Origin: Octopus sinensis
Taxonomy: Eukaryota
Length of the DNA stretch: 64,000 nt
Direction of reading: 5' to 3'
Assembly: GCF_006345805.1 (NCBI RefSeq)
Contig: NC_043019.1
Location: forward strand, 11,407,360 to 11,471,359
Shown: piece after piece, positions 45,701 to 48,700 of the stretch
Layout: the number at the start of each line of letters is the position of its first letter
Position numbering within the stretch: the stretch's first letter is position 1
Program-made: the position numbers and the translations under genes
Notes under the pieces: model-generated
What the model was told of the DNA's origin: nothing
Databases searched by the model: none
The model's input: the letters and a program-made list of their open reading frames with translations, nothing else

Positions 45701-48700
45701 ACACACACACATGCACACATATATACATACACACTCACACACACATATGATGTATTTCTCCATAGTGCTTCTACTAAAGTTACTCATAGGACATTGGTTG
45801 ACCCAGGGCTATAGCACATAACAGTTGCCCAACTTCCTACATGGCTTCAAAGTAGACTTCTTGACCATATAGCTGCGTCTGCACCAGAATGGTCAAGGGT
45901 AGAACACCTTTCATCATAGGTTTACTCAAAGAAGGTTTGCCTAGGGGCTAAACAACAACAAAAACAGCAGCAGCAACAACAACAACAACGACAACAATAA
46001 CAACAACAACATTTAACTTTTACAGCAAAAAATCTTTACTCACGGGATTTTTTTTGAAAGGCAATGAGGGAACGTGGAAAGGTTCTCTGCCAAGATTTTG
46101 GCGAGTTCTTTCTAGGAATGAATCCCAGTTGGGGTTACTGGGACCTCTTGGTGCCATTATCAACACTGACTGAAATGCTTTTATCTCATTCATTGTTAGA
46201 GATTCTTTCGTCTCAAAGGGTTCTGCAAAAAAAAAAAAAAAGAAAAAGAAAACAGAACAAATATTTTAATCATTCTCCCATTCCATGCATGCTGCACGCC
46301 ATCTTCTGATGAGCCATGTAGCACCATGGGCAAATATGTGCAAATACCTATTTCTTTACTACCCACAAGGGGCTAAACACAGAGAGGACAAACAAGGACA
46401 GACAAACGGATTAAGTCGATTACATCGGCCCCAGCGTGCAACTGGTACTTAATTTGTCGACCCCGAAAGGATGAAAGTCAAAGTCGACCTCGGCGGAATT
46501 TGAACTCAGAATGTAACAGCAGACGAAATACCTATTTCTTTATTACCCACAAGGGGCTAAACACAGAGGGGACAAACAAGGACAGACATAGGTATTAAGT
46601 CGATTACATCGACCCCAGTGCGTAACTGGTACTTAATTTGTCGACCCCGAAAGGATGAAAGGCAAAGTCGACCTCGGCGGAATTTGAACTCAGAATGTAA
46701 CGGCAGACGAAATACCTATTTCTTTATTACCCACAAGGGGCTAAACACAGAGGGGACAAACAAGGATAGACATAGGTATTAAGTCGATTAAATCGACCCC
46801 AGTGTGTAACTGGTACTTAATTTGTCGACCCCGAAAGAATGAAAGGCAAAGTCGATCTTGGCGGAATTTGAACTCAGAACGTAACGGCAGACGAAATACC
46901 GCTAAGCATTTCGACCGGTGTGCTAACGTTTCTGCCAGCTCGCCGCCTTACCAGCTGACCACTCCCACATTCACTAGTCTGGATACCACTTCCACACCAG
47001 CAGCACAGGTCAATCTAGTTCATATCCTCATCTTGAATGCTGGCTAGGGACCAAATGCTGGCTAGGGACAAATGGCCAAAGTGGGGTTCCTCTGAAAGAT
47101 TTCTAGAGCAACATACTTGACAGGTGTGTAACTCAGAGATCAGAGAGTCTCTCCAGGCAGAGTCACTACATCTCCACACTAAGGAGTCACAGCCCCAGTA
47201 CTATGGACACATGATTAGTATGTTAGAGGAAAGAATACTAAAACTGATTCTTCAAGCCACACCAACTGGCAGGGGACCTAAGGGTAGACCAAGGATGAGA
47301 TGGCTGGATCATACCATAGTCTCAGTTAGTCACGCTTGGGATTCTAGCTGAAATGTGTAATGGCTTCTTATGGGACTCTATGGAGGAGGCACCTGGGGAC
47401 ACAGCAACTACAACCACCACCACCACCACCACCACTACTACTACTACTACTACCACCACAGACAACTACTGCTACTACTACTACCTATTACTATCGCCAC
47501 AGCTACTACTACTACTGCTGCTATTATTACCACCACTGACTAATATTACTACCACCACCATCACTACTACTAACTACAAATACTACCACCACCACTGCTA
47601 ATTACTACTACTACCACTACAACTAAATACTTAGCATGATCATGTATGGGACATCATTGACTGAAGATCTGCCTGAGCAGGACTGACCTAGGGCTAAAAA
47701 AACAACAACAACAACAACATCAACAACTTACCAAAAATGAAATACTTTATTCTTTTTGTGGGGTCATCAGGTTGATCATTGACCCCTATGGTGACATAGT
47801 CCCCACTGTCTGTCAGACCCATAGACTTCAGGGTCCGCACGAATTCAGTAAGAGCATGATGGTCACCTAAAAATATATAAACTGGCAGCACAACATTAAG
47901 GTGGGTAATTAATTAAAAATATATTTAGACAAAACAGTTCTATAATTAAGAGATGAGGAATTATTTACATTATTTACATTATTTACATTTGACAGATATT
48001 TGTCCTCATCTCATTTGTTGTTGACACAACGTTTTGGCCGATATACCCTCCAGCCTTCTTCAGGTGTCTTGGGGAAATTTCGAACCTGGGTTCTCATTCC
48101 TAAGGTATTTTTCAATGTTATTATTATTATTATTATTATTATTGTTGTTGTTGTTGTTGTTGTTGTTCAGGTCACTGCTTGGAATCAAACTCAGAATCTT
48201 GGGGTTAGTAGCCCGTGCTCTTAACCACTATGCTTAACCACTACACCACTATGCCATATGGCCACGGGCATATGGCATAGTGGTTAAGAGCACGGGCTAC
48301 TAACCCCAAGATTCTGAGTTCGATTCCAAGCAGTGACCTGAACAATAACAATAAAAATGATAATAATAATGATGATAACAACAACAACAACAAAAAATAC
48401 CTTAGGAATGAGAACCCAGGTTCAAAATTTTCCCCAAGACACCTGAAGAAGGCTGGAGGGTATATCAGCAGAAACGTGTTAACAACAAACAAGATGAAGA
48501 CAAATATCCGTCGAATGTAAATAATGTATATTTAGACAAAAATGGCTTTTACTAATTAGCTTAATCAATATAGGAAAAGAATTGATTGATATAGTTCTGT
48601 TGTATATCATTTTATTGTCATTTTAATGTTCAATTGTCCAACTTTACCATTTCTTGAAGGACATGCAAAGTGCCATAGACGCTGCCTCTTTCTCCAGACA

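What the first reader, a model, noticed from the sequence alone, without database searches (positions are those of the whole stretch)
47920..48541. Palindromic tRNA-headed retroposon with Penelope-type hammerhead motifs, inserted as one unit
Seen: two ~270-bp arms are joined head-to-head with almost no spacer (centre ~48263). Each arm has a tRNA-like Pol III head (A box TGGCATAGTGG, B box GAGTTCGATTCC) pointing outward, a microsatellite, then a tail. One 15-bp direct repeat (TATATTTAGACAAAA) flanks the whole palindrome, which suggests a single insertion event. Each tail has a minimal hammerhead layout. The consensus of both arms and the fragment at 27500-27549 is GACAC-CTGAAGA-A-GGCTG(loop)CAGCC-GAAA-CGTT-GTGTC: stem I, core, stem II, GAAA and a palindromic AACGTT in place of stem III. 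Known: Penelope-like elements carry such minimal hammerheads, which act as dimers, and often insert as inverted structures. Inference: this may be a SINE family mobilised by Penelope-like machinery, combining a Pol III head with a ribozyme-defined end. Both copies here have core mutations (left GAAA>AAAA; right has a stem II mismatch and a 2-nt deletion).
Basis: partly seen in the sequence, partly recalled or inferred. Interest (0 to 1): 0.75.

Follow-up and report, generated by a model that had tools for sequence, protein, structure and literature searches.

The report
Penelope retrotransposon with a tRNA promoter
This palindrome is one decayed insertion made of two back-to-back copies of the end repeat of an abundant protein-coding Penelope-type jumping gene, and that repeat opens with a tRNA-derived sequence that likely lets RNA polymerase III, an enzyme normally used for short non-coding RNAs, transcribe the whole element.

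Summary
Observation confirmed: two inverted arms, one 15-bp target duplication, tRNA-like heads, minimal hammerheads. The SINE reading is only partly right. The arm is the pseudo-LTR of a protein-coding Penelope/Poseidon-type element of this genome: ORF end, tRNA head, microsatellite, ATG, hammerhead, tail, rest of ORF. Roughly 27,000 arms exist. 43 of 46 two-arm insertions pair one full and one ~35-nt-shorter tail, the Penelope signature. 24 of 30 position-sampled heads stop 0-7 nt upstream of tRNA +1; the 2.4-kb coding body has no TTTT terminator, against a median 4 per kb in 58 relatives without such a head. So polymerase III likely transcribes the coding unit, and internal priming at the first tail likely yields the short copies; neither is shown directly. 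A 3-nt deletion recurs at the predicted ribozyme cut, never in both arms (0 of 46): a possible footprint of cleavage. This scan noted the family before on other DNA; eight paper searches found no description.

The parts
47920..47934 (+). Left target-site duplication, 15 bp
   Evidence: family D10, 100% identical; same arrangement in 27 of 43 full+short insertions
47935..47971 (-). Optional ~35-nt Penelope 'tail', present on the left arm only; in coding copies it runs on into the ORF
47960..47989 (-). 9-nt repeats (three copies) where the short ends of the family cluster; predicted proximal start site of reverse transcription
   Evidence: (D8); role inferred from PMC11167929
48023..48068 (-). 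Left minimal type I hammerhead; G12>A at 48035 breaks the core; predicted cut between 48028 and 48027
48095..48097 (-). Likely start codon of the element's ORF in the left arm (frame open for 28 codons here, then a stop)
48113..48167 (-). Left (AAC)n(AAT)n microsatellite
48168..48262 (-). Left tRNA-derived head with two short internal duplications and a C>T change in the B box
48252..48277 (.). Centre: fold-back palindrome around the short natural hairpin at the 5' end of the head
48266..48338 (+). Right tRNA-derived head, 73 nt; A box 48273-48283, B box 48316-48327; no cloverleaf
48339..48396 (+). Right microsatellite
48408..48410 (+). Likely start codon of the ORF in the right arm (frame shifted a few codons later)
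48438..48480 (+). Right hammerhead; C>A at 48470 breaks the closing pair of stem II; 3-nt deletion at the predicted cut (48475/48476)
48481..48528 (+). Right arm 3' part, short end without the tail; last 2 nt shared with the target duplication
48527..48541 (+). Right target-site duplication
27492..27552 (-). Separate 5'-truncated fragment of the same family: 3' half of the ribozyme with the same 3-nt deletion, short end

Best explanation
[quoted passage not shown] Shown: the unit order (ORF end, head, microsatellite, ATG, hammerhead, tail, ORF), the one-full-one-short tail rule, 12-15-bp target duplications, the pile-up of 5' ends at the head, and the lack of TTTT on the sense strand. Inferred: polymerase III starts about 6 nt upstream of tRNA +1 and reads head-hammerhead-tail-ORF-head-hammerhead-tail. 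The element's RT/GIY-YIG protein nicks both strands of an AT-rich target and primes two cDNAs at two internal RNA sites ~35 nt apart, as shown in vitro for the Anolis element PAc (PMC11167929). Priming at the first tail copies only ~270 nt up to the RNA's 5' end and gives the SINE-like unit; priming at the second tail gives ORF-containing copies. The two cDNAs are joined head to head, often through the short palindrome at the 5' end. The hammerhead would cut inside the first codons of the ORF, and RT jumping across the cut would leave the recurrent 3-nt deletion.
For: Coding context: searches (27 of 29; 19 of 27), full copies L224, L229. Protein 37.5% identical over 810 aa to an 836-aa Anolis carolinensis protein and 28-29% to the genome's zinc-linker PLEs; no zinc-finger linker. 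Tail rule 43 of 46, 0 full+full. TSD score >=10 in 21 of 39 inverted loci vs 5 of 117 swapped controls. Exact 22-mer counts along the unit: 7,272 (ribozyme), 3,418 (mid head), 2,471 (head 5'), 824 (25 nt upstream), 243 (200 nt upstream). 5' ends: 24 of 30 within 7 nt of +1; 68 of 94 within 10 nt. 3 of the 5 long copies that reach the upstream head begin there. T-runs: 0 in the 2,388-nt majority sequence, 0.33/kb in 18 decayed segments, median 4.1/kb in 58 relatives, 9-13 per ORF in other PLEs of this genome. No A/B-box pattern behind the ORF in 0 of 58 relatives (42 with >=300 nt). Hammerhead stems covary across 15 relatives. Shared variants respect the reading frame and are shared between arms: 33 of 41 and 36 of 42. 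Deletion at the cut: 22 of 130 arms not chosen for it, unlinked to subfamily variants, in both arms 0 of 46.
Against: No start site was observed: RNA reads of a related sample cover the unit on both strands, follow the genomic copy profile and show no pile-up of ends. The synonymous-shuffle test for T-runs is modest (0 vs mean 2.8, P 0.027; dinucleotide null P 0.10), and 1 of 58 relatives (L265) also has a TTTT-free ORF without a tRNA head, though its 3' UTR has T-runs. Controls come from other organisms with other base composition. An uncapped polymerase III RNA is a poor mRNA (general knowledge), and PMC10886601 argues that coding partners of such promoters must use polymerase II. 6 of 30 heads and 2 of 5 long copies run on upstream, so longer templates exist. 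The 5' pile-up could come from the short hairpin there. 8 of 41 and 6 of 42 arm pairs differ at subfamily sites, so arms need not come from one RNA. No intact ORF was found among the copies read; arms are ~5.7% from their majority sequence. PAc's ribozyme was dispensable for insertion in vitro and no reads ended at its cut (PMC11167929).
Confidence: 0.65

Rival explanations
1. True SINE layer: the protein is made from polymerase II read-through of tandem copies, while short head-hammerhead-tail copies are transcribed by polymerase III on their own and mobilised in trans.
For: Short copies outnumber ORF-start copies by far (7,272 exact ribozyme matches vs 424 first-look candidates for the ORF start); each complete short copy keeps promoter boxes and both priming sites; 5' ends pile up at the head.
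Against: No frame-breaking subfamily among 130 arms; both common variants respect the ORF and occur in ORF-linked copies; does not explain the TTTT-free 2.4-kb body or long copies that begin at the head.
Confidence: 0.2
2. Ordinary Poseidon element with a passenger: an old tRNA-SINE piece sits in the 3' UTR without promoter role; short copies are plain 5' truncations that stop at the small hairpin at the head's 5' end, where cDNA folds back.
For: PLE insertions are heavily 5'-truncated and often inverted (PMC8557442 passages); counts fall along the whole unit; fold-back palindromes centred on the hairpin are common.
Against: Loss per base is several times higher at the head's 5' end than on either side (three-fold over 28 nt vs three-fold over 190 nt); solo copies without fold-back stop there too; T-run depletion is unexplained.
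Confidence: 0.13
3. The palindrome arose after insertion or by chance (two independent neighbours, recombination, assembly fold-back).
For: Arms differ at ~12% of sites and in microsatellite length.
Against: One exact TSD spans both arms; the same architecture recurs with TSDs in 27 of 43 insertions and a strict tail rule; an assembly artefact would give identical arms.
Confidence: 0.02

Closest known systems
Penelope/Poseidon-clade PLE PAc of Anolis carolinensis (PMC11167929; parts 1-2 of 4 read: main text and start of methods)
   Same: Single RT + C-terminal GIY-YIG ORF, pseudo-LTR, hammerhead overlapping the ORF start, two RT start sites ~110-160 nt into the ORF that define an optional 30-40-nt tail, AT-rich targets, both strands primed.
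   Different: No tRNA-derived head is described for PAc in the text read; D. virilis Penelope has a LINE-like TATA-less internal promoter (PMC2377424, passages). Here the pseudo-LTR starts with A/B boxes and the unit lacks TTTT.
Minimal hammerheads of metazoan PLEs (PMC4209133; parts 1-2 of 4 read)
   Same: Short stem I, bulged base before stem II, G10.1-C11.1 pair, palindromic 15.2-16.2, no stem III; pairs of motifs 100-700 bp apart on opposite strands were already noted in Schistosoma.
   Different: A recurrent deletion at the cut site and a tRNA head are not mentioned in the parts read.
Schistosome Sm-alpha / Sj-alpha SINE-like elements (seen second-hand in PMC6765202 passages; original paper not held)
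   Same: Polymerase III promoter followed by a hammerhead in a short interspersed repeat.
   Different: Described as non-coding tandem SINE-like repeats released by the ribozyme; here the unit is the terminal repeat of a coding element, is inserted mostly inverted, and ends past the cut.
TRIMp3 elements Cassandra, Helenus, Ajax (PMC10886601, passages)
   Same: Small-RNA-derived polymerase III promoter inside a terminal repeat, possibly by SINE capture.
   Different: Those are short non-autonomous LTR elements; the author expects coding partners to use polymerase II. Here the promoter-like head lies in the coding element itself.
Non-LTR retrozymes and non-autonomous Chlamys/MRC1 (bioRxiv 10.64898/2026.07.22.740005, parts 1-3 of 5 read, supplements not seen; PMC8557442 passages)
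   Same: Non-coding derivatives of PLE pseudo-LTRs exist and spread.
   Different: Retrozymes are head-to-tail tandem arrays without a described tRNA head; this family is dispersed and inverted.

Membership tests
EN+ Penelope-like element, Penelope/Poseidon type | One ORF with PLE RT and C-terminal GIY-YIG-type endonuclease | tested here: met
   Read through decayed copies; 56% to intact P0004, 37.5% to Anolis P0033 over the whole length; Pfam RVT_1 E 1e-6 on one piece. No intact copy found.
EN+ Penelope-like element, Penelope/Poseidon type | No zinc-finger-like linker between RT and EN (unlike Neptune, Nematis) | tested here: met
   Alignment: linker absent in the family, present in L215/L217; quick tree separates them (SH-aLRT 100); Repbase-named references not available.
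EN+ Penelope-like element, Penelope/Poseidon type | Pseudo-LTRs, partial tandem and inverted insertions | tested here: met
EN+ Penelope-like element, Penelope/Poseidon type | Optional 30-40-nt tail at one end only | tested here: met
   43 of 46 two-arm insertions full+short, none full+full
EN+ Penelope-like element, Penelope/Poseidon type | Minimal type I hammerhead in the pseudo-LTR | tested here: met
   All sequence features of PMC4209133 present; stems covary across 15 relatives
Hammerhead ribozyme | Self-cleavage activity | not testable with these tools
   Only an indirect sign: deletion hotspot at the predicted cut. Both window copies have damaging changes.
tRNA-derived SINE (SINE2) | tRNA-related head with A and B boxes | tested here: met
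   73-nt head colinear with this genome's tRNAs (z 6.5-7.7 vs shuffles; parent tRNA unresolved among 9 types sampled); below ARAGORN and Rfam thresholds
tRNA-derived SINE (SINE2) | Non-autonomous family whose head is not part of the partner element | tested here: not met
   Head follows the ORF end in 27 of 29 loci; variants respect the ORF
tRNA-derived SINE (SINE2) | 3' end shared with a LINE, A-rich or simple-repeat tail | tested here: not met
   3' end is the start of a PLE ORF
tRNA-derived SINE (SINE2) | Transcription by RNA polymerase III | tested here: inconclusive
   5' pile-up and T-run depletion fit; RNA reads uninformative
Non-LTR retrozyme | Head-to-tail tandem units each with a type I hammerhead | tested here: not met
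   Position-sampled loci are inverted or single; tandem short units are occasional (L139, L126)

The most novel reading that the evidence does not exclude
An autonomous, protein-coding retrotransposon captured a tRNA-derived promoter, purged all polymerase III terminators from its 2.7-kb unit and spread on polymerase III transcripts; internal priming at its first tail makes it its own SINE factory (~27,000 arms), and the recurrent deletion at the hammerhead cut records ribozyme cleavage in vivo.
Probability: 0.5. Interest if true: 0.8.

Novelty: new variant of a known kind. Interest (0 to 1): 0.62.

Why it matters
Coding retrotransposons are held to be polymerase II units and SINEs polymerase III units (PMC10886601 passages). 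A coding element under a tRNA-type promoter would blur that line and show one route by which a SINE-like family can be born in cis. The thousands of insertions also give genomic tests of the poorly known Penelope mechanism: a strict one-long-one-short tail rule matches two-site, two-strand priming seen in vitro, and the deletion hotspot offers a first handle on whether these minimal ribozymes cut in vivo. For annotation: such repeats would be mislabelled as SINEs.

Tried and rejected
Rfam and ARAGORN: no tRNA or hammerhead call on the window or on a well-kept copy. Pfam GIY-YIG search of the genome returned other PLE families; none of 30 loci shared the tail; the partner was found from the family's own loci. 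Pfam on decayed ORF pieces was weak. Sequencing runs: no RNA holder listed; raw RNA reads of a related sample showed both strands and no end pile-up, so they say nothing on start site or polymerase. Folding z-scores of the ribozyme are not significant. Processing by RNase P as source of the 5' ends: rejected as unlikely, since the head does not fold into a cloverleaf and most ends keep 3-7 nt upstream of +1. Snap-back self-copying as the only source of the second arm: rejected, since arms differ in tail length and in 8 of 41 pairs at a subfamily site. A stand-alone head-only SINE as donor of the head: not found; heads without a nearby tail were mostly interrupted by other repeats. A third variable site (109) showed no arm sharing (31 of 44, expected 32.8) and is inflated by my choice of query. 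Look-up of earlier findings by sequence: none. Tree is the quick method only; the careful search did not finish. Two papers (Ferbeyre 1998, Lunse 2017) were not held. Repbase and Dfam could not be searched, so a consensus entry there is not excluded.

Full report
Observation. Small corrections: the right arm lacks 3 nt at the ribozyme, only the left arm carries a ~35-nt outer tail, and the fragment at 27492-27552 has only the 3' half of the ribozyme. The genome is 2.72 Gb in 13,516 contigs; earlier scan notes call it an octopus, which I did not test.

Family. An exact 22-mer of the ribozyme occurs 7,272 times; 29 of 107 arms not chosen on it contain it, giving roughly 27,000 arms. Of 59 loci chosen by likeness, 39 are tails-out inversions, 15 one-strand and 5 partial (this set includes the window locus and four copies of one duplicated locus). 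Of 27 distinct loci sampled by position, 17 hold an inverted piece and 10 do not (read by eye). Target duplications scored 10 or more in 21 of 39 inverted loci against 5 of 117 flank-swapped controls; anchored at the full end, 27 of 43 insertions show one, 21 of them 12-15 bp. After dropping duplicates, 139 loci gave 172 arms and 46 two-arm pairs (one locus counted twice): 43 pair a full with a short tail, 3 two short, none two full, although full ends are 78 of 193. This is the optional 30-40-nt tail of Penelope-like elements (PMC8557442, passages), which in the Anolis element PAc lies between two internal start sites of reverse transcription, with both target strands primed (PMC11167929, parts 1-2 of 4).

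Coding partner. An earlier scan note suggested that the unit belongs to a coding element; I tested this. In L008/L020/L021 the full tail runs into a PLE ORF, and the ORF's end is followed after ~25 nt by head, microsatellite, ribozyme and tail. The head follows the ORF end in 27 of 29 loci picked on the ORF end and the tail precedes the ORF body in 19 of 27 picked on its start. The frame begins at an ATG ~30 nt before the ribozyme and passes through ribozyme and tail, much as in PAc. Read through with X at breaks, the 839-residue protein is 56% identical to an intact unnamed protein (P0004) that keeps the peptide laid over the ribozyme core, 37.5% to an 836-aa Anolis carolinensis protein (probably PAc or a close relative; inferred), and 28-29% to the zinc-linker PLEs of this genome; it lacks that linker. 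So the arm is the pseudo-LTR of a Penelope/Poseidon-type element. No intact copy was seen among those read. The only common non-CpG variants in 130 arms are Asp>Glu at the one free position of the ribozyme core and a synonymous Ser change; they are linked (P 7e-12) and usually shared by the arms of one insertion (33 of 41, 36 of 42; shuffled 22.4, 24.9). The sources of short copies were therefore under coding constraint, which argues against a free-standing SINE family.

The head. It is 73 nt, colinear with this genome's tRNAs (z 6.5-7.7; parent unresolved), keeps A and B boxes but no cloverleaf. Exact 22-mer counts fall from 3,418 (mid head) and 2,471 (positions 4-25) to 824 just upstream and 243 some 200 nt upstream; motifs differ in mutability, so ratios are rough. 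Of 30 position-sampled heads, 24 end 0-7 nt upstream of +1 and 6 run into the ORF end. Of 94 arms reaching +10, 68 end within 10 nt of +1, 21 at -11 to -20 (mostly fold-backs that mimic the upstream sequence) and 5 beyond -60. Three of five long copies that reach the upstream head begin there. The majority sequence of the coding body has no run of four T in 2,388 nt, decayed copies 10 in 30,286 nt, whereas 58 of 80 metagenome relatives long enough to score have a median of 4.1 per kb, one has none, and none shows an A/B-box pattern behind the ORF; other PLE ORFs of this genome have 9-13. Against: the within-sequence nulls are modest (P 0.027 and 0.10), and RNA reads gave no start site. That four or more T end polymerase III transcripts is recalled, not from a call.

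Ribozyme. All features listed for minimal PLE hammerheads are present (PMC4209133, parts 1-2 of 4), and 15 relatives show the same core with different, pairing stems. Positions 84-86, just 5' of the predicted cut, are missing in 39-40 of 172 arms, 27 of them by the same 3-nt event; the next commonest event, in a perfect AAC repeat, has 9, and the TGA repeat fewer than 2. Leaving out loci chosen by likeness to the deleted arm, 22 of 130 arms have it; it is unlinked to subfamily variants (P 0.59) and is present in both arms of 0 of 46 insertions, in one arm of 18. It thus arises per arm. A jump of RT across cleaved RNA by a 2-nt match would give exactly this; DNA slippage is not excluded.

Mechanism. 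Shown: architecture, tail rule, duplications, 5' pile-up, T-run lack. Inferred: polymerase III transcription from the head through the whole unit; two-strand priming at two internal sites; short copies from the first tail, ORF copies from the second; head-to-head joining through the small palindrome at the RNA's 5' end. How the protein is translated is open; polymerase II read-through of tandem copies could supply it.

What is known. The pieces have precedents: PLE tails, inversions and ribozymes; schistosome polymerase III-plus-hammerhead repeats (PMC6765202, passages); polymerase III promoters in non-autonomous LTR elements (PMC10886601, passages); retrozymes as PLE derivatives (bioRxiv 2026.07.22.740005, parts 1-3 of 5; supplements not seen). 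Penelope's own promoter is LINE-like (PMC2377424, passages). Eight full-text searches (listings only, apart from the papers named) found no coding PLE with a tRNA-derived head; subscription papers, Repbase and Dfam were out of reach. This scan reached similar readings on four other windows; these are not independent support.

Verdict. Real feature; one dead insertion of a Poseidon-type element; new variant of a known kind; interest 0.62, resting on the promoter and on the mechanistic signatures, not on this locus.

Noticed in passing
window 48734-49100 (+); also 11133-11443, 21908-22213, 43514-43788, 19954-20228, 38982-39169, 14481-14892: A second abundant repeat with ~65-bp internal repeats; several copies start with a 61-bp inverted repeat (48734-48794 / 48811-48871 here; matching pieces at 11154-11214, 21924-21984, 38989-39048), so the hairpin belongs to the element.
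   Followed up: no
window 16382-16437 (+), 62016-62040 (-), 26370-26388 (-): Other tRNA-like heads with A/B boxes, from different repeat families.
   Followed up: no
L058:1600-2095, L178, L177, L007, L174, L181, L168: The (AAT)n microsatellite inside the unit is often interrupted by other repeats, including the 3' end of a LINE with a restriction-like endonuclease (R4/Dong type, name recalled).
   Followed up: partly
L215, L216, L217, L223: Two or more other PLE families of this genome with a zinc-finger linker have stop-free ORFs of 775-883 codons, three with a further ~280-320-codon open frame on the same strand; likely young.
   Followed up: partly
L091-L094 (L008, L020-L022): One decayed full-length copy lies inside a larger segment present at four places of the assembly.
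   Followed up: no
L265:3001-5260: The closest metagenome relative has a TTTT-free ORF but a T-rich 3' UTR and no tRNA head.
   Followed up: partly
window 5811-8750: Long low-complexity CA/TA-rich tract with strong strand skew and spurious long open frames.
   Followed up: no
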